A stretch of DNA of 64,000 bases from a virus (IMGVR_UViG_3300034106_004043); one strand, 5' to 3'; counted from the first letter of the stretch, positions 3,004 through 19,500 are shown. Notes: generated from the letters alone by a model not told the origin. Numbers and translations are program-made.

Positions 3004-3017
3004 AATTTTAAAATTTG

Positions 3018-3575: not shown

Positions 3576-4175
3576 TTATCTTACCAAACTAACAAAACCT
3601 TTTTGGTAATGTGGTGTTCCTTTTTCATCACGGTAATACATCTTCCAAGTGTATATACCCGACTCACAATAGTATCCACTGTTATTCACATTACCTGTCC
3701 AATATTGTGATTGTGATTCAATAACACAAACCAGTTGACCCCATTGGGTATAAATCTCTAATCGTGGATTAAACACATTGGTTCCCTTGAAGGAAAATAT
3801 ATCATTCAGCCCATCGTTGTTAGGTGAAAACGAATTGGGAACATAAAGTTTATGACAGGCAGTGGTGGTAATAGTTAAAGAAGCAGTATCAGTACTACAC
3901 CCATTTAAATCCACACCATACACTTCAATCAAATAATTATCAGTGGTATCATCCCAAGTCAATGAAATATCATTGTCGGATTCAACCTGACCTACACTAT
4001 CAACCGTCCAGTAATAAACAACATTGTCTATGTTCTCAACAGAATAGTTATGTGTCTTAAACTCTGAACACATATCAAGCACATTACCATCGTGTGTTAT
4101 CGTTAGTGGTAAAGTATCACACTGTCCAAAGAAGTGTGAGGGAATAAATAATAATACAAATAAAAGTTTTTTCAT
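3576..4175 (-). CDS. Secreted protein with T9SS type B (gliding motility-associated, CHU_C-like) C-terminal domain
   Basis: Signal peptide ending FFG-Q; YVPNSFSPNNDGLNDIF...IYTQWGQLV...WTG...GIYTW...KGFVSLVR. Confidence 0.85.
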   Translation of the reverse strand: MKKLLFVLLFIPSHFFGQCDTLPLTITHDGNVLDMCSEFKTHNYSVENIDNVVYYWTVDSVGQVESDNDISLTWDDTTDNYLIEVYGVDLNGCSTDTASLTITTTACHKLYVPNSFSPNNDGLNDIFSFKGTNVFNPRLEIYTQWGQLVCVIESQSQYWTGNVNNSGYYCESGIYTWKMYYRDEKGTPHYQKGFVSLVR

Positions 4176-4983: not shown

Positions 4984-5031
4984 ATCTATAAATATATGAA
5001 AATGAGTTTTTTTCATAGTTGAACTTAATTG

Positions 5032-5119
5032 AGTGTTCGGTCAGATTCGAACTGACGATGTTGCTATTAACAAAACCAATTTTGCAGATTGGCGGTTTCA
5101 ACCACTCACCCACGAACAC
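5032..5119 (-). tRNA. tRNA-Cys(GCA) with long variable arm
   Basis: gtgttcg/cgaacac acceptor, U73; ccaat-CTGCAAA-attgg; 19-nt variable region; gtcag-TTCGAAT-ctgac. Confidence 0.85.
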
Positions 5120-5146
5120 TTATAATTTAATACCAAAAAAGTCAAG

Positions 5147-5234
5147 AGGAGAGCAACAGACTCGAACTGTGCCCAACTTAATGGGTTACTGTTTAGCAAA
5201 CAGTCGGGGACACCATTTCCCTCCTTTACTCTCC
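5147..5234 (-). tRNA. tRNA-Ser(GCU)
   Basis: actgt-TTGCTAA-acagt; long variable arm; ggagagt/gctctcc acceptor. Confidence 0.85.
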
Positions 5235-5238
5235 AATG

Positions 5239-5313
5239 TGTGTCTAGCGGGATTCGAACCCGCGATGACCTGAACCACAATCAGGCGACTTAAACCTCTT
5301 GTCAATAGACACC
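5239..5313 (-). tRNA. tRNA-His(GUG)
   Basis: cctga-TTGTGGT-tcagg; G-1 present; gcggg-TTCGAAT-cccgc. Confidence 0.9.
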
Positions 5314-5319
5314 GTGTAG

Positions 5320-5402
5320 TACCCCCTGTAGGACTCGAACCTACACGTCTTTAAGACAATTGTTTCTAAGACAACTCTGACTACCAGTTCCAGCAAGGGG
5401 GT
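5320..5402 (-). tRNA. tRNA-Leu(UAG)
   Basis: gttgt-CTTAGAA-acaat; variable arm; A73. Confidence 0.9.
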
Positions 5403-5409
5403 AAATAAG

Positions 5410-5496
5410 CGGAAGAGATAGGACTCGAACCTACACATCAGTTTCCCGATACCGGTTTTCAAGACCGGGGCGATACCAATTACGCTTTACTCTTCC
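5410..5496 (-). tRNA. tRNA-Ser(UGA)
   Basis: ccggt-CTTGAAA-accgg; long variable arm; G73. Confidence 0.92.
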
Positions 5497-5758
5497 AAGT
5501 TCCCCACCTGAGATTACAGTGAGTAGATTTTAACGGGTTACTCTGACTGTTTCGAGAACCATCACTATTCTGGGTTCGACGCCAGACCTAGCTTTTTCAT
5601 TAGTGTCTTACCACATAAAAACCTGTCAATCCTATACGTCGGAGCTGCGGATATGCTTCACTTTAACCCGAATCGATTCCCCATTAAGGTCGGGGGCTTT
5701 TTACTACCACTACTTTTTTAAAGAATGTAGCCAATCTTGCCGAGTATCTCTTACTCAT
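5497..5758 (-). ncRNA. Candidate structured ncRNA in the tRNA operon
   Basis: GC-richer spacer with hairpins; 3' end shares CTGTAATCTCAGG with the 1 kb RNA at 18360-18372. Confidence 0.45.
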
Positions 5759-5760
5759 TG

Positions 5761-5949
5761 CAATCAGAACAGGATTCGAACCTGTATGATGTATTTCCCT
5801 TACATCTCGGAATTAAGAGTATCATAGAAACAACTTAATCCTACTAACTTACTTGTTGCGTCTACCAAGTTAACATTGACCCCGTAGTGGATTCTAACCA
5901 CATTGTTTTTACATCTAGAACGGGGTTGTTAACATTCCGCCACCTGACT
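5761..5949 (-). ncRNA. tRNA-like RNA A (189 nt) with D-loop insertion
   Basis: AGTCAGG/TCTGATT acceptor; GGCGGAAT...TGGTAGACGC split D arm; ACAGG-TTCGAAT-CCTGT T arm. Confidence 0.7.
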
Positions 5950-6074
5950 ATATTTTATTTCAATAATCTAGACCAAATCTTAATTACCATATCTCTTTGT
6001 GGAGATGGTTTTAGTTTCGACCACCTATCTATCCAATTCTTTATTTGTTCCTGTGTCATTCTTATTTAATCTTG

Positions 6075-6155
6075 CAGTCAGGACAGGATTTGAACCTGCA
6101 TTGTCACCCCTTTATAGTGTACACCGCGAGCTGCGTTACCATTCGCCACCTGACC
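6075..6155 (-). ncRNA. tRNA-like RNA B (81 nt), no canonical anticodon arm
   Basis: GGTCAGG/CCTGACT acceptor; GCG/CGC D stem; GCAGG-TTCAAAT-CCTGT. Confidence 0.7.
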
Positions 6156-6373
6156 TATGTTAAAACACCCTTATCTATCCAACTTACAGGTGTTATGGCT
6201 GTCCTCATTGCTGAGTTAGGAATAAACTGTCTTGCTCCCCTTCGTGATGGGTTTTACCGACCTTAGTAGTCAACTAGAAGGTAATATATATACAAACCTT
6301 CAACTCTTCCCTATGGTTATCATACCATTTCTCATCGTATGGGACATACTATCTGATGATTAGTCAGAACGTG

Positions 6374-6440
6374 TAGTCAGAACAGGATTCGAACCTGCAA
6401 TCTTCCTTGTTAGGAGCTCTGCCAATTGAGTTACCTGACT
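6374..6440 (-). ncRNA. tRNA-like RNA C (67 nt), 4-nt anticodon loop
   Basis: AGTCAGG/TCTGACT acceptor; tcct-AACA-agga arm; GCAGG-TTCGAAT-CCTGT. Confidence 0.7.
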
Positions 6441-6636
6441 ATTTTACTATTAGCTCTTTAGCATTCTACTCCCTGCATGACGGAATTGTATCTTACTTAG
6501 CCCCACGTCCTCAGTACGGGTACCAAAGTTCACTAATAGTTGAGGATGAGAAGTCCTCTGTGTTGTAAGCATATTGTTACTTTTAACAACTTCCTTTTTT
6601 ATCAATACCTCCTTTCTCAAGGGAACAACACGTTTG

Positions 6637-6751
6637 TAGTCAGGGCCGGACTCGAACCGGATAAGTAACCTTACTTCTAATGGAATCTCCAAGTGTCGAG
6701 AACCACTAGCTCTATGGATTTGGGACCGTCCCTCATTACACCCACCTGACT
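6637..6751 (-). ncRNA. tRNA-like RNA D (115 nt), expanded core
   Basis: AGTCAGG/CCTGACT acceptor; TCCGG-TTCGAGT-CCGGC; TATCTTTG promoter element at 6756-6763. Confidence 0.65.
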
Positions 6752-6774
6752 CCGACAAAGATATGGTAAGTTTT

Positions 6775-7080
6775 TCAATCTACCAAATCTTTTTCCACAT
6801 CTTCATACCATTCTTCAACCGCAAAGATTAATTGAATAAACTCGCAACCATCATCGTCCGATTCATATCTTACGTGGAACCCACCTGTTGATACATCTGT
6901 TTTTTCTTTAAACGCCATCTTTAATAATCGTCTCGCTTCTTGTCTCAATTCAGGAACAGTTGGAATACCTTCGTCAGAAGCCGCCCACTCCCAATTCAAT
7001 ACTTCCATTACTTTTCGGACTTGTTCAAACTTGAAGTAGTCCATTATGCTATCAATAGCATCTTGTTGTTTCTGTGTCAT
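6775..7080 (-). CDS. Hypothetical protein
   Basis: ORF track; typical composition. Confidence 0.75.
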   Translation of the reverse strand: MTQKQQDAIDSIMDYFKFEQVRKVMEVLNWEWAASDEGIPTVPELRQEARRLLKMAFKEKTDVSTGGFHVRYESDDDGCEFIQLIFAVEEWYEDVEKDLVD

Positions 7081-7501: not shown

Positions 7502-7542
7502 AATACAAAGATAAGACAAGTTTATTAATAAAACAAAAAAAG

Positions 7543-7613
7543 TTGTCCCGTCTGGACTCGAACCAGAAATACAACAGTCAAAGTGTTGTGTGATGCCATT
7601 TCACTACAGGACA
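7543..7613 (-). tRNA. tRNA-Gln(UUG)
   Basis: caaca-CTTTGAC-tgttg; full cloverleaf. Confidence 0.92.
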
Positions 7614-7670
7614 ATATGGAGCGTAGTGGGGCTGCAGTCCCCTGAGGCACCTACGCAAGTTACTCCTCTT

Positions 7671-7746
7671 TGGCGGCTCCAACGGGATTCGAACCCGTAC
7701 CACACGGCGTGACAAGCCGGCATTGTAGCCATTCAACCATGGAGCC
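7671..7746 (-). tRNA. tRNA-Asp(GUC), CCA encoded
   Basis: ccggc-TTGTCAC-gccgt; ends GCCA. Confidence 0.92.
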
Positions 7747-7824
7747 AAAGTGGGTGGAATCAGAGGCCTTCTGTCCACCGAGACCTCGTAGTTGACTTTC
7801 GTCAGAGCTTACCGAGACACCAGG

Positions 7825-7897
7825 AGCGGGTTGGGGTAATCGAAACCCCGTCTTCACTTTGGAAGAGTGACATAATGAGCCGTTATACGAAACCCGC
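7825..7897 (-). tRNA. tRNA-Gly(UCC)
   Basis: tcact-CTTCCAA-agtga; U73. Confidence 0.9.
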
Positions 7898-7981
7898 TTA
7901 TAAAAAACCCCATCTTCGTCGGATTAACGGACCGACTGCCATATCGGAGGTGGGGGGTTGTCCTGTTAATTCAGAACCTCG

Positions 7982-8054
7982 TGGTACCAGGTGGATTCGA
8001 ACCACCGACACAAGGATTTTCAGTCCTTTGCTCTACCAACTGAGCTATGGTACC
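7982..8054 (-). tRNA. tRNA-Phe(GAA)
   Basis: aagga-CTGAAAA-tcctt; canonical cloverleaf. Confidence 0.95.
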
Positions 8055-8061
8055 ATTATAG

Positions 8062-8136
<75 letters not shown>

Positions 8137-8143
8137 AATTAAG

Positions 8144-8218
8144 TTCTCACGGTTGGAATCGAACCAACGACCTTTTGTGTATCAGACAAATGCTCTAAGC
8201 CAACTGAGCTACGTGAGA
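8144..8218 (-). tRNA. tRNA-Ile(GAU)
   Basis: tttgt-CTGATAC-acaaa. Confidence 0.95.
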
Positions 8219-8225
8219 ATATTAG

Positions 8226-8299
8226 AGCCTCCAGTCGGAATCGAACCAACGACCTACTGATTACAAATCAGTCGCTCTGACCTGCTGAGCTATGGAGGC
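8226..8299 (-). tRNA. tRNA-Thr(UGU)
   Basis: actga-TTTGTAA-tcagt. Confidence 0.95.
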
Positions 8300-8305
8300 T
8301 TGTTG

Positions 8306-8376
8306 CACGACAGTAGGGACTCGAACCCCAAACAACGGTTTTGGAGACCGTGATGATACCATTTCACCACTGACGT
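8306..8376 (-). tRNA. tRNA-Trp(CCA) with 8-nt anticodon loop
   Basis: acggt-CTCCAAAA-accgt; G73; one mismatch each in acceptor and T stems. Confidence 0.75.
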
Positions 8377-8383
8377 GTTTAAG

Positions 8384-8458
8384 TGACCCCGGTGGGACTC
8401 GAACCCACGACTCCCTCATTAAAAGTGAGGTGCTCTAAACCTGCTGAGCTACGAAGTC
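8384..8458 (-). tRNA. tRNA-Lys(UUU)
   Basis: cctca-CTTTTAA-tgagg. Confidence 0.95.
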
Positions 8459-8468
8459 ATTATTTTTG

Positions 8469-8540
8469 CGGTGATGGGGAATTTCGAAATCCCGACCCTC
8501 TGATTAACAGTCAGATGCTCCACCTCTGAGCTACATCACC
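8469..8540 (-). tRNA. tRNA-Asn(GUU)
   Basis: tctga-CTGTTAA-tcaga; G73. Confidence 0.93.
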
Positions 8541-8623: not shown

Positions 8624-8737
8624 TTACATCTTATTAAGAACCCTGAACTTACGGCAATCCTGCCCCTTAATCGTAAACCATGATTGGCCCACGTTTGTCG
8701 GGAGATTACTTACGTTATGTGTTGAGTTCTGTTTCAT
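8624..8737 (-). CDS. 37-aa putative leader peptide MKQNSTHNVSNLPTNVGQSWFTIKGQDCRKFRVLNKM
   Basis: Manual translation; between promoter and terminator; contains a copy of the terminator 3' arm at 8639-8650. Confidence 0.65.
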   Translation of the reverse strand: MKQNSTHNVSNLPTNVGQSWFTIKGQDCRKFRVLNKM

Positions 8738-8766
8738 TGTTTTCTTATTAAATATCAATTGTTTTA

Positions 8767-17002: not shown

Positions 17003-17848
17003 TTATTTAAGTAGGTTGTAATACTCGTTGAAGTGTTTTATTCTGTCAGTGAGCCCTATAACCCCGCCATTAACTCGTTTTGTAACTGCCGTGACAGTTG
17101 CAACATCAGAACCCTTATCACAGATTGACCAAAGTTTGTTTGAATCAAAGAAGAACGCCGCAGAGGCTAAAGGATATTTGGTAGCAACTAAATCAGGATT
17201 AGACACAGTATCTTCACCAATGAACTTAGCGAAGTTTGTATAGTTTTGTTTACCAGTCAACTGGATATATCCTCTTCCACGGAATTTAAAACCTTCACCT
17301 GTTGACTCATCACCATTACCCATTCTACTTCCATAAACACGTGAAGCAATCTTTTCAGGTTGACGAGCATATGACTCGTTTAAGTTACCAGGGAAATACT
17401 TACCAAAGATTTTCTTAAGTCCGTCAGCAGAATAGTTAAGGTTCTCAGAAACAGCTTTAAACCCACCTGACTCGTGTCCACACTGAGCCAAGAAATGAGC
17501 TAATCTTAATGGGTTAGTGATATTGAATTTTTTAGCAGTTTCAGGGATTTGAGCAATCACTGCGTCAGGAATATGTCCTTTTAGATTTTGTAATTTGAAC
17601 TCAGAACTTGTTGGAATAACAACATCTTCTTTAACCACTTGTGCTGGTTGAACAGGTTGAGTTGTCGCTCCGAACATTTTAGACCAAGTTCCTGGCCCAA
17701 CGATTCCGTCAGCGGTTATTCCGTTAGCCGCTTGCCATTCTTTAACTTTTTTCTCTGTGTTAGGACCGAATGAACCATCGGCAGTTAATCCTAATTTTGC
17801 TTGGAGTTGTTTAACGTCTTCTCCTTTAGACCCAACTTTTAGTAACAT
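17003..17848 (-). CDS. Endolysin: peptidoglycan-binding domain plus glycoside hydrolase family 19
   Basis: LKVGSKGEDVKQLQ...DGIVGPGTW; LAHFLAQCGHESGGF; FRGRGYIQLTGKQNY; TKRVNGG. Confidence 0.9.
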   Translation of the reverse strand: MLLKVGSKGEDVKQLQAKLGLTADGSFGPNTEKKVKEWQAANGITADGIVGPGTWSKMFGATTQPVQPAQVVKEDVVIPTSSEFKLQNLKGHIPDAVIAQIPETAKKFNITNPLRLAHFLAQCGHESGGFKAVSENLNYSADGLKKIFGKYFPGNLNESYARQPEKIASRVYGSRMGNGDESTGEGFKFRGRGYIQLTGKQNYTNFAKFIGEDTVSNPDLVATKYPLASAAFFFDSNKLWSICDKGSDVATVTAVTKRVNGGVIGLTDRIKHFNEYYNLLK

Positions 17849-18322: not shown

Positions 18323-19343
18323 AAAAAAACCCGTCAATTGACAGGTCAGATTAGAAAAGCCTGAGATTACAGCTTATGTTAAGAAACTTTTGAAGGATTA
18401 TTGTTTCCCTTCGTATCCACCACCTTTTGGGTAGTATTTCTTAGTGACGGTATTTTAGGTGTACCACTCCTTGAGGTTTGAATTACTCTATCAGTACTTA
18501 ACTCTTTCCGAGGTTGCCACCCCAGTTCGTCCTTGCGGGACTAAAGGTTTTTCTTAACAATACACATTGACTTGGGGTCTCTGTATGCAATGAACGGCTC
18601 ATTACTATGTAGTCACCTTTCACTCAAACCTGATGGACACTTTTCCTTTGTTATTTTGTAATAATTTTAGGGTTGTGTTGTAGATGTGTCAGAGTAGTGG
18701 TCCAACATAAGCTCTGTCTCCTTTTGAGCGACAGAATACTAAACTACTCCGTGAAGTGTCCCCACCTCCATATTTCAAGATTACTTCATAAAGAGACCTT
18801 GGTAGGTCTTCCTTAGGGATAGTAGCGACACCACTCGTTCTCCATCTTACCTTTCGGTTTTAAGTCCTCTATCATATTGGGACCCGCAATAGTGTAACTG
18901 GATGGTCACATTTCTTACAGAGTTCCTATGGGTTATTCTTATCGTTCTTCCGAACTCAACTTGAGAATCTACTTTCCCAAGTCACCCAACCATTTTCCCT
19001 ACGAAGTTATCCTCGGTACTTACGGTGTGGTGATATCCCACTTGTGTACTTGAGTTCAATTCCCCTTACGGGGTTTCAAACCGCAGTCTCCTCAACACAG
19101 GGGAGACCACTTTATCCTACTTTCGTAGTTTATTTAAGGACCATACACGGCCCATTATCGTTTATCAGTTACACTCAAGCTGCGGACTTTCTGCCATTTA
19201 CTCGGTGGATAATATCACCGACACTTTGTGTTTCCTGAACGGATAATCTTTTTGTTTCAAAGAACGCTTTTTCAAAAAGAGAAGAAGGAGGAATCTTTAC
19301 AACCTACCGAAGTAGGAATCTTTACAACCTCTTCATCTCAAAT
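18323..19343 (-). ncRNA. Large (~1 kb) structured non-coding RNA
   Basis: No credible ORF; GC-richer; minus-strand GAAA, GUAA and UUCG tetraloop hairpins; promoter upstream and terminator at 18323-18346. Confidence 0.75.
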
Positions 19344-19349
19344 CTTTTA

Positions 19350-19482
19350 CAAACTTACGACTTTTTTTTCTTTCTGTCAAGTAGTTTGTGAACTTTTTTT
19401 TTGATTTAACTACCGAGTATCTTTCATCCCCTATGAGTGTTAAATCTTTTACAAACTTACGGCGAATATTCCGTAGTGTCAA
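19350..19482 (-). promoter_or_regulatory. Tandem Bacteroidota-type promoters for the large ncRNA
   Basis: TTGAC...TAAGTTTG twice (-7 boxes at 19350-19357 and 19452-19459). Confidence 0.7.
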
Positions 19483-19500
19483 ATAAATATATCAAAAAAA

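What the first reader, a model, noticed from the sequence alone, without database searches (positions are those of the whole stretch)
5761..6751. Four tRNA-like RNAs with a shared acceptor/T top half and unrelated cores
Elements at 5761-5949, 6075-6155, 6374-6440 and 6637-6751 share an (A/G)GTCAGG/(C/T)CTGA(C/T)T acceptor stem and a T arm; three have RCAGG-TTCRAAT-CCTGT. Their cores give total lengths of 189, 81, 67 and 115 nt, and none has a normal 7-nt anticodon loop. This acceptor is not shared by any real tRNA in the window. Element D starts right after its own host-type promoter. Inference: they may be tRNA mimics acting as decoys for tRNA-targeting nucleases or sensors, or RNase P/Z-processed scaffolds carrying cargo RNA, rather than independently decayed tRNAs.
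Basis: partly seen in the sequence, partly recalled or inferred. Interest (0 to 1): 0.82.

Follow-up and report, generated by a model that had tools for sequence, protein, structure and literature searches.

The report
Anticodon-less tRNA-shaped phage RNAs
Four genes in the tRNA island of an uncultured lake phage encode RNAs that keep the top half of a tRNA but carry other folded modules in place of the anticodon arm. They belong to two large phage RNA families I could not find described, and their nearest known relatives are the tRNA-like "stable RNAs" of phages T4 and T5, whose function is still unknown.

Summary
All four elements lie on the minus strand, in a 1.3-kb gap without long ORFs between two blocks of ordinary tRNA genes. 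They are not decayed tRNAs.

- **A, B and C** belong to a very large family of uncultured phage contigs. It has a constant acceptor stem, a mostly tRNA-Leu-type D arm and a constant T arm. Its cores are hyper-diverse: 162 distinct cores among 190 unique copies sampled.
- **D** belongs to a second family. It is single-copy and sequence-conserved, and shares the same acceptor stem (at least 119 contigs).

Acceptor, D and T stems, and several cores, show compensatory changes. Members always point the same way as neighbouring tRNA genes (173:0) and carry the same flanking signature as those tRNAs: T at -1 and C after the discriminator.

A relative about 90% identical keeps D, C and the spacers at 96-100% identity. 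It has unrelated units at the A and B sites, so units are exchanged like cassettes.

Most likely these are non-decoding RNAs cut out by the tRNA-maturation enzymes, with a tRNA chassis carrying variable cargo. What the cargo does is unknown. I did not demonstrate processing, CCA addition or charging.

Decoys for anticodon nucleases are unlikely, because there is no anticodon loop. This scan has met the same family before on other DNA.

The parts
5761..5949 (-). Element A (188 nt plus discriminator G at 5761). Acceptor 5943-5949 / 5762-5768. The Leu-type D arm is split by a 65-nt D-loop insert (5869-5933), a nested minihelix with a T-arm-like hairpin. Core about 5786-5857. T arm 5769-5785.
   Evidence: Sequence and folds. 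The core has homologues in L107, L213, L216 and L219 with compensatory changes in an inner hairpin. The same D-loop insert occurs with a different (B-type) core in L209 and at 95% identity in L085.
6075..6155 (-). Element B (80 nt plus discriminator G at 6075). Acceptor 6149-6155 / 6076-6082, Leu-type D arm 6133-6146, 33-nt core 6100-6132, T arm 6083-6099.
   Evidence: Rfam tRNA model 38 bits with the anticodon region skipped. Core homologues in L133, L205, L206, L211 and L209. Acceptor pair 1-72 occurs as A-U, G-U and G-C, and the D stem as GCG/CGC or GTG/CAC.
6374..6440 (-). Element C (66 nt plus discriminator A at 6374). Family acceptor and T arm, a class-I (tRNA-Gln-like) D arm, and a stub of 4 bp plus a 4-nt loop (6404-6415) where the anticodon arm should be.
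   Evidence: Folds. Rfam tRNA 38 bits. 100% identical in L025. The D arm resembles Bacteroidota tRNA-Gln.
6637..6751 (-). Element D (114 nt plus discriminator A at 6637). Member of a second, single-copy family. Same acceptor stem; the D arm is replaced by a conserved GYGUAAUGAGG arm with tandem G-A/A-G (6715-6744). Inserted hairpin 6677-6709 with conserved loop GACACUUG (6690-6697). T arm 6645-6661.
   Evidence: At least 119 IMG/VR contigs carry the 5' module, and it is single-copy in 85 of 85 loci. The consensus fold has covarying pairs. 99% identical in L025. No Rfam match.
6756..6787 (-). Bacteroidota-type promoter match (TTTG-N20-TATCTTTG) ending 4 nt upstream of element D.
   Evidence: Pattern search: 14 matches in the window against 4.7 expected. 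Not conserved in L025.
6441..6636 (-). Spacer D-C. Conserved, structured non-coding stretch (fold z = -3.0). Part of it (6486-6631) recurs in other contigs and in RNA-library contigs.
6156..6373 (-). Spacer C-B. 99% identical to L025 and present in contigs of four lake metatranscriptome runs. It begins with a 10-nt repeat of the 3' end of C.
5950..6074 (-). Spacer B-A, holding a possible 34-codon ORF (5955-6059).
   Evidence: ORF list. 96% identical to L025, and the two differences inside the ORF are synonymous by my reading of alignment A1.
5497..5760 (-). Spacer between A and tRNA-Ser. 88% identical to L025, with an RNA-library contig at 5600-5684.

Best explanation
The four elements are genes for non-decoding, tRNA-shaped small RNAs that sit in the phage's tRNA operon.

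**Anatomy.** Each keeps the parts of a tRNA that the maturation machinery reads: the 7-bp acceptor stem and the T arm. A, B and C also keep a D arm with the GG that docks on the T loop. The anticodon and variable region is replaced by another folded module.

**Proposed mechanism.**
1. The RNAs are transcribed together with the neighbouring tRNAs. D may also have its own promoter.
2. RNase P cuts them out at the 5' end, and the host's 3' tRNA-processing and CCA-adding enzymes finish the 3' end.
3. They accumulate as stable RNAs. The tRNA chassis supplies processing and stability, and the inserted module is the working part.

**Two families.** A, B and C belong to a family whose cargo differs in almost every copy and is swapped between related phages, probably by recombination within the conserved ends. 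D belongs to a sister family with one conserved cargo.

**Function.** The cargo most likely binds or titrates host or phage factors, which fits a fast-turnover accessory locus. Cutting the units out would also separate the small RNAs or small ORFs lying between them.

**Shown versus inferred.** Shown: the anatomy, family membership, covariation, co-orientation, the shared flank signature and the cassette replacement. Inferred: processing, stability, and any charging or cargo function.
For: - Total lengths run 60-181 nt. Sampling gave 162 dereplicated cores among 190 unique copies, with no shared core motif.
- **Selection at the RNA level.**
  - The D stem occurs as GCG/CGC, GTG/CAC, GCT/AGT, ACT/AGT, ATG/CAT and others.
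  - The T stem occurs as ACAGG/CCTGT, GCAGG/CCTGC, ACTGG/CCAGT, GATGG/CCATC and others when anchored on the 5' block only.
  - The acceptor occurs as A-U, G-U, G-C or U-A at pair 1-72 and C-G or U-A at pair 4-69.
  - Related cores keep their helices through double changes.
- **Treated like tRNA genes.** Members are co-oriented with canonical tRNAs within 1 kb in 173 of 173 cases, and with each other in 67 of 67. T at -1 is found in 83% of members and 71% of canonical tRNAs in the same loci. A C follows the discriminator in about 95% of members, in all 15 window tRNAs and in all four elements.
- **Cassette behaviour.** Against L025, D is 99% identical, C 100%, spacer C-B 99% and spacer B-A 96%. 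The unit at A is replaced (48%), and the B site holds two other units plus a small ORF. The neighbouring protein genes are 92% identical. The D-loop insert of A is combined with a B-type core in L209.
- **Transcription.** Contigs from four lake metatranscriptome runs cover D with its leader and the spacers.
- **Precedent.** T4 rnaC and T5 RNA1, RNA2 and RNA3 are annotated tRNA-like stable RNAs inside tRNA clusters. T5 RNA1 has the same Leu-type D loop.
Against: - No mature ends, CCA tails or abundance were seen. Only assembled contigs could be laid. Their ends fall at element borders, which is where assembly graphs break at repeats, so they say nothing about processing.
- RNA libraries can contain DNA.
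- No cargo function, target or protein partner was found. The commonest neighbouring protein cluster is present in only 15 of 143 loci.
- Structural constraint on the cores could reflect only the need not to disturb the chassis.
- Near-identity of C, D and the spacers to L025 may reflect recent exchange rather than purifying selection.
Confidence: 0.55

Rival explanations
1. Pure punctuation. The tRNA-like units are only cut-here signals, like plant mitochondrial t-elements. They release or stabilise the small RNAs and small-ORF mRNAs lying between them, and the cores have no function of their own.
For: - The spacers are conserved and appear in RNA-library contigs.
- A possible 34-codon ORF lies between B and A, and small hydrophobic ORFs directly precede units in L025.
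- ORFs of 40 or more codons end in the T(-1)A1G2 stop in 19 of 154 cases, against 3-6 in the control frames.
- Very small units such as C exist.
- The T5 tRNA region has the same mix of tRNAs, small ORFs and stable RNAs.
Against: - Cores of up to about 130 nt with several hairpins are kept, although a minimal unit would do the job.
- Related cores keep loop sequences while their stems covary, for example the GACACUUG loop of the D family.
- The D family has a conserved core in at least 119 contigs.
- Most units are not next to an ORF; the median open frame upstream is 8.5 codons.
Confidence: 0.2
2. Top-half decoys or sponges. The constant acceptor, T arm and elbow titrate a factor that reads that part of a tRNA. 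Candidates are a toxin that modifies or cuts the CCA end or acceptor stem, LeuRS, EF-Tu or RNase P. The core is only filler.
For: - The top half is what is conserved across hundreds of copies.
- The Leu-type chassis keeps A73 in 128 of 142 copies, together with G18G19 and the T loop. The identity review PMC9976931, citing Larkin 2002, lists these as sufficient for E. coli LeuRS to charge tRNA-Leu variants that lack the anticodon and variable arms.
- Genomes carry several copies, 1-5 each.
Against: - There is no anticodon loop, so these cannot be decoys for anticodon nucleases.
- In this window A and B have G73, which the same review lists as an antideterminant against LeuRS in E. coli tRNA-Ser. 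Charging is therefore not a fixed property.
- This reading does not explain the conserved cores or the separate D family.
Confidence: 0.12
3. Selfish tRNA-derived repeats or decaying tRNA pseudogenes that spread or persist at the DNA level, with no RNA function.
For: - The units sit in many different gene contexts and show presence/absence differences between relatives.
- Rearranged copies exist: an 'empty' scaffold fused through the shared GAAT (L175, L220), copies without a T arm, and inserts inside the acceptor 3' strand (L155, L159).
Against: - Compensatory changes occur in all three stems and in the cores.
- Orientation matches the tRNA genes in 173 of 173 cases.
- No recombinase or transposase is associated.
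- The empty scaffold occurs in only 2 contigs.
Confidence: 0.06
4. Interrupted tRNA genes whose inserts are spliced out to give ordinary decoding tRNAs.
For: ARAGORN with introns allowed and the score threshold lowered proposes some calls, for example B as Tyr(ATA) with a 10-nt intron.
Against: - Those calls appear only at reduced thresholds, give unused or odd anticodons, and are not kept in homologues; the 'TAT' in B is absent from L133 and L205.
- The inserts are too short for group I introns, and Rfam reports none here.
- The conserved blocks end at the D arm and begin at the T arm, so no conserved anticodon-arm exon exists.
Confidence: 0.02

Closest known systems
Phage T5 RNA1, RNA2 and RNA3 ('tRNA-like stable RNA with unknown functions', GenBank AY543070)
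   Same: - They lie inside a phage tRNA cluster, interleaved with tRNAs, small ORFs and other stable RNAs.
- They have an acceptor stem and T arm with a long non-anticodon middle.
- RNA1 has the Leu-type D loop GGAATTGGTAGACG.
- RNA2 has the T arm GCAGG-TTCGAAT-CCTGT and an inner T-loop-like hairpin of the kind seen in some cores here.
   Different: - Acceptor stems and cores differ, and there is no sequence homology beyond generic tRNA blocks.
- T5 infects E. coli; this phage probably infects Bacteroidota.
- The T5 record does not indicate a shared chassis with hundreds of alternative cores or cassette exchange.
Phage T4 species 1 and species 2 RNAs (rnaC, rnaD)
   Same: Small stable RNAs of unknown function at the end of the T4 tRNA cluster. 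rnaC ends in a canonical T arm and a partial acceptor helix.
   Different: rnaC has an imperfect acceptor stem and no recognisable Leu-type D arm. rnaD shows little tRNA likeness in the fold. No sequence similarity.
Canonical class II tRNA-Leu, including the tRNA-Leu genes of the same phages
   Same: - The D arm and D loop of A and B, and of most family members, are of the tRNA-Leu type.
- A73 is kept in 90% of members.
- The flanks match: T at -1 and C74.
   Different: - No anticodon arm and no canonical long variable arm.
- ARAGORN fails on most members, and Rfam scores are 31-50 bits against 50-77 for real tRNAs.
- A and B in this window have G73.
Plant mitochondrial t-elements / tRNA punctuation (PMC1920247)
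   Same: tRNA-like structures that cannot decode, placed next to other transcripts, and thought to serve as RNase P/Z processing signals.
   Different: t-elements are degenerate and lack a conserved cargo. Here the cores are elaborate and conserved within lineages, and the setting is a phage tRNA operon.
Engineered 'tRNA scaffold' for expressing recombinant RNA (from my own knowledge; no paper checked)
   Same: The anticodon arm is replaced by an RNA of interest, so that the cell processes and stabilises it like a tRNA.
   Different: That is a laboratory design. This would be a natural counterpart.

Membership tests
Canonical tRNA (Rfam RF00005) | 7-bp acceptor stem and 5-bp T stem with a T-psi-C-type loop | tested here: met
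   All four elements have them. D has 4 bp plus a U-C mismatch in the T stem.
Canonical tRNA (Rfam RF00005) | Anticodon arm: 5-bp stem and 7-nt loop with U33 and purine 37 at the standard position | tested here: not met
   Absent from all four. ARAGORN at default settings calls none of them.
Canonical tRNA (Rfam RF00005) | Score above the Rfam gathering threshold | tested here: inconclusive
   B and C reach 38 bits (threshold 29) only by skipping the anticodon region. A and D give no hit.
Phage tRNA-like stable RNAs (T4 rnaC; T5 RNA1/2/3) | Encoded inside a phage tRNA cluster, on the same strand as the tRNAs | tested here: met
   The elements lie between two minus-strand tRNA blocks. Across the family, 173 of 173 are co-oriented.
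Phage tRNA-like stable RNAs (T4 rnaC; T5 RNA1/2/3) | tRNA-like acceptor and T arm without a decoding anticodon arm | tested here: met
Phage tRNA-like stable RNAs (T4 rnaC; T5 RNA1/2/3) | Accumulates as a discrete stable RNA in infected cells | tested here: inconclusive
   RNA-library contigs cover D and the spacers, but contigs cannot show RNA ends or levels.
AGUCAGG / tRNA-Leu-chassis family (defined here and in earlier notes of this scan; not in Rfam 15) | 5' block AGUCAGG-UG plus a Leu-type D arm; 3' block RCAGG-UUCRAAU-CCUGY plus YCUGAYU; variable core between them | tested here: met
   A and B meet it fully. C has the acceptor and T arm but a class-I D arm. D has the acceptor only and belongs to the sister family.
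GYGUAAUGAGG (D-type) family (defined here) | AGUCAGG acceptor, conserved GYGUAAUGAGG-hairpin-(G/A)A-RUCC arm, GGUURCUUAU before the T arm, single copy per locus | tested here: met
   D matches. It is single-copy in 85 of 85 loci, and the consensus helices covary.
tmRNA | G3-U70 alanine identity, tag reading frame and pseudoknots | tested here: not met
   Pair 3-70 is U-A. Only a low-threshold ARAGORN 'permuted tmRNA' call spanning two elements appears, and there is no Rfam tmRNA hit here.
tRNA gene with group I intron | Group I intron fold in the anticodon loop, flanked by anticodon-arm exons | tested here: not met
   No Rfam intron hit in 5500-7000. The inserts are 16-132 nt, and there are no conserved anticodon-arm exons.
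t-elements / tRNA punctuation | RNase P/Z cleavage at the element defines the ends of neighbouring transcripts | not testable with these tools
   This needs raw reads or end mapping. Only contigs were available.

The most novel reading that the evidence does not exclude
Lake phages, and probably many others, keep a community-wide pool of hundreds of structured RNA modules. The modules are displayed on one tRNA-Leu-derived chassis that borrows the host's tRNA maturation, and in A73 copies perhaps LeuRS charging. Recombination within the ~25-nt conserved ends shuffles the modules between phages. This would be an RNA counterpart of anti-defence gene islands or integron cassettes, with each module aimed at a different host factor.
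Probability: 0.2. Interest if true: 0.88.

Novelty: new variant of a known kind. Interest (0 to 1): 0.62.

Why it matters
tRNA-like stable RNAs have been known in T4 and T5 for about fifty years (from my own knowledge) without a function. This window shows that such RNAs form very large families in uncultured phages, with a constant tRNA chassis and interchangeable, conserved cargo modules.

- The comparative data give concrete handles for experiments: which parts covary, which loops are fixed, which units are swapped, and A73 against G73 variants.
- They are a natural version of the tRNA scaffold used in the laboratory to express RNAs.
- They are missed or mis-called by tRNA finders, so phage tRNA counts and 'pseudo-tRNA' annotations are affected.

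Tried and rejected
- **Link to GOLLD RNA.** The window has a GOLLD RNA at 18358-18751, but 0 of 10 other large contigs carrying family members have one.
- **Conserved protein partner.** Clustering 2,760 ORFs from 143 loci put the commonest cluster (DUF932) in only 15 loci. The others were terminase, DnaB, T5orf172 and unknowns. Window neighbours are ClpP, a protein with a T9SS C-terminal sorting domain, and unknowns.
- **Cores copied from or antisense to the host.** A search of 401 Bacteroidota genomes with the whole 1.3-kb region found only tRNA-like pieces: tRNA-Gln and tRNA-Val resembling C.
- **Universal core motif.** None found, only weak k-mer enrichments.
- **Integron-like 'empty site'.** A scaffold fused through the shared GAAT occurs in only 2 IMG/VR contigs.
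- **Cultured relatives.**
  - blastn of the region and of D against 50,697 phage records gave no match.
  - A typical family member hit only about 25-nt pieces; the one hit I opened (Enterococcus phage EFDG1) is an ordinary tRNA-Gln gene.
- **Cellular genomes.** Only 23 hits, all in metagenome bins and mostly Bacteroidota. These are likely phage contigs or prophages.
- **RNA contig ends as evidence of processing.** Rejected. The ends coincide with repeat borders, where assemblies break.
- **Fifth AGTCAGGTGG site at 17463.** It lies in a coding region and is a chance match.
- **Spliced tRNAs.** Only low-threshold ARAGORN calls.
- **Literature.** Full-text searches, including for the conserved sequence blocks themselves, found no description of the family.

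Full report
**1. What is there**

The window carries 15 ordinary tRNA genes, all on the minus strand, in blocks at 5031-5496 and 7542-8540 plus one at 3017. It also carries a GOLLD RNA at 18358-18751.

Between tRNA-Ser (5409-5496) and a 101-codon ORF (6775-7080) lies about 1.3 kb with no long ORF on the minus strand. The four elements lie in this gap and also read on the minus strand.

- RGTCAGG at the 5' end and YCTGAYT at the 3' end.
- RCAGG-TTCRAAT-CCTGT T arms in A, B and C, and CCGG-TTCGAGT-CCGG in D.

RGTCAGGTRR occurs 5 times in the window against 0.49 expected. The fifth site is inside a lysozyme-like gene.

ARAGORN finds none of the four. The Rfam tRNA model reaches B and C at 38 bits only by skipping the anticodon region. 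With the scaffold constrained, none forms a standard anticodon arm.

**2. They are members of large families**

An exact scan of IMG/VR for the 23-nt 3' block returned the maximum of 120 contigs, many with 2-7 copies. A scan for the 16-nt 5' block did the same.

Nearly all copies have three constant parts:
- the acceptor stem AGUCAGG;
- a D arm identical in type to that of the tRNA-Leu genes in the same phages;
- the T arm, followed by A73 and then C.

The middle is 16-132 nt long. It differs in almost every copy: 128 clusters among 146 cores, and 162 dereplicated cores among 190.

Cellular genomes gave only 23 hits, all in metagenome bins and mostly Bacteroidota. Three things point to a Bacteroidota host:
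- the lake-water source;
- enrichment of the TTTG/TAnnTTTG promoter motif;
- a protein with a T9SS C-terminal sorting domain.

**3. Each window element has relatives**

- **B.** Its core recurs in L133, L205, L206, L211 and L209.
- **A.** Its core recurs in L107, L213, L216 and L219. Its 65-nt D-loop insert recurs in L085, and in L209 it is combined with the B-type core. Inserts and cores therefore assort independently.
- **C.** It is identical in L025. It has a class-I D arm like Bacteroidota tRNA-Gln and a 4-bp/4-nt stub in place of the anticodon arm.
- **D.** It belongs to a separate family.
  - It has the same acceptor stem, but a conserved GYGUAAUGAGG arm with tandem G-A/A-G next to a hairpin. 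I read this arm as K-turn-like by inference only.
  - A long-range helix pairs GGGYG with UUGCU.
  - There is a small hairpin at which long forms such as D carry an inserted arm. Its loop GACACUUG is fixed while the stem covaries.
  - At least 119 contigs carry the family, always as a single copy (85 of 85 loci).

**4. Evidence that selection acts on the RNA**

- **D stem.** It varies through compensatory pairs when only the 3' block is used as the anchor.
- **T stem.** It varies likewise when only the 5' block is the anchor.
- **Acceptor stem.** Pairs change on both sides in B-type and A-type relatives, and in copies with other acceptor stems found by a generic search.
- **Cores.** Related cores keep their helices through double changes.
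- **Orientation.** Members match canonical tRNAs within 1 kb in 173 of 173 cases and each other in 67 of 67.
- **Flanks.** They share the flank signature of the real tRNA genes of these phages:
  - T at -1 in 83% of members against 71% of tRNAs;
  - C right after the discriminator, in all 15 window tRNAs and all four elements;
  - an A/T-rich trailer with no encoded CCA.

From what is known of RNase P, RNase Z and CCA-adding enzymes, which read the acceptor/T minihelix and the elbow, I infer that these RNAs are matured like tRNAs. This is an inference. I did not observe it.

**5. Cassette behaviour**

L025 is a relative with about 92% identity in the adjacent protein genes. Segment by segment:

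| Segment | Identity to L025 |
|---|---|
| D | 99% |
| C | 100% |
| Spacer C-B | 99% |
| Spacer B-A | 96% |
| Spacer A-Ser | 88% |
| Unit at the A site | 48% (unrelated unit, preceded by a small hydrophobic ORF) |
| B site | two other units plus a 30-codon ORF |

Breakpoints therefore lie at or in the units. Rearranged copies exist but are rare: an empty scaffold fused through the shared GAAT, and inserts in the acceptor 3' strand.

**6. Transcription**

Six lake metatranscriptome runs hold parts of the region, and I laid four of them. Their contigs cover D with its leader, the spacers C-B and D-C, and 5600-5684.

Contig ends fall at element borders. The scaffold is a repeat at which assemblies break, so I do not count this as evidence of processing. 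DNA carry-over cannot be excluded.

**7. Function**

No partner protein, host target or GOLLD link was found. The options I weighed:

- **Chassis plus cargo (my choice, 0.55).** It explains both the constant top half and the elaborate, lineage-conserved, swappable middles.
- **Punctuation only (0.2).** It explains the position between small ORFs and conserved spacers. This is the same architecture as the T5 tRNA region. It does not explain large conserved cores.
- **Top-half sponge (0.12).** It is attractive because E. coli LeuRS charges tRNA-Leu variants that lack the anticodon and variable arms, provided A73 and the D/T-loop contacts are kept (PMC9976931). The family keeps A73 in 90% of copies. 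However, A and B here have G73, so charging cannot be a fixed requirement.
- **Anticodon-nuclease decoys.** Excluded by the anatomy.
- **Selfish repeats or pseudogenes (0.06) and spliced tRNAs (0.02).** Both fit the data poorly.

**8. Comparison with what is known**

The nearest known things are T5 RNA1, RNA2 and RNA3 and T4 rnaC. These are annotated tRNA-like stable RNAs of unknown function inside tRNA clusters. T5 RNA1 has the same Leu-type D loop.

The kind is therefore known. I found three things in neither Rfam 15 nor the searchable literature:
- the shared chassis with hundreds of alternative cores;
- the cassette exchange;
- the sister D-type family.

Earlier notes of this scan describe the same AGUCAGG family on other genomes, so this is a repeat sighting within the scan. 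I re-derived here the points I use.

**9. Verdict**

This is a new variant of a known but unexplained kind of phage RNA. Interest is moderate to high, because the family's scale and modularity make an old open question testable.

Noticed in passing
window 18358-18751 (-): GOLLD RNA, Rfam 322 bits, about 11.6 kb from the tRNA-like array. Ten other large contigs carrying family members have no GOLLD.
   Followed up: partly
window 5955-6059 (-): Possible 34-codon ORF between elements B and A. By my reading of alignment A1, its two differences from L025 are synonymous (TCT/TCA and AGA/AGG).
   Followed up: partly
window 6441-6636 (-) and 6156-6373 (-): The 'spacers' are conserved and appear in contigs of lake RNA libraries. 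Spacer D-C folds better than shuffles (z = -3.0), and parts recur in L029, L066, L085, L087 and L114. They may be further small RNAs.
   Followed up: partly
window 6361-6370 and 6374-6383 (+ strand coordinates): 10-nt direct repeat TAGTCAGAAC: the 3' end of element C is duplicated 3 nt downstream. It is also present in L025.
   Followed up: no
window, 14 sites, e.g. 6756-6787, 7506-7537, 19452-19483 (-): The Bacteroidota-type promoter motif TTTG-N17-21-TAnnTTTG is enriched (14 against 4.7 expected). Together with a protein carrying a T9SS C-terminal sorting domain (3576-4175), this points to a Bacteroidota host.
   Followed up: partly
L175:2206-2231; L220:8368-8393 and 8718-8743: 'Empty' scaffolds: the acceptor stem and the start of the D arm are fused to the end of the T arm through the shared GAAT. 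Found in only 2 IMG/VR contigs.
   Followed up: yes
L155 (from position 1911, + strand) and L159 (from position 5113, + strand): Family members with a hairpin-forming insert inside the 3' strand of the acceptor stem. This is a third insertion site besides the D loop and the core.
   Followed up: no
L085:5724-6218; L010:7832-8193 and 7609-7837: Phage-encoded tmRNA genes in two related tRNA islands. In L010 a group I intron hit abuts the tmRNA.
   Followed up: no
L166, L177, L075, L129, L014, L042 and others: Anticodon-less tRNA-Leu-like units with other acceptor stems (AGCAAGA, GAGATAG, AGCCAAG, GGTTCAG, TGTCAGG and more). The phenomenon is wider than the AGUCAGG clade.
   Followed up: partly
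L234:5960-6084 (T5 RNA2): T5 RNA2 has the T arm GCAGG-TTCGAAT-CCTGT, identical to that of the family, and an inner CTCGTTCGATTCGAG hairpin. The same hairpin occurs in the core of L096.
   Followed up: partly
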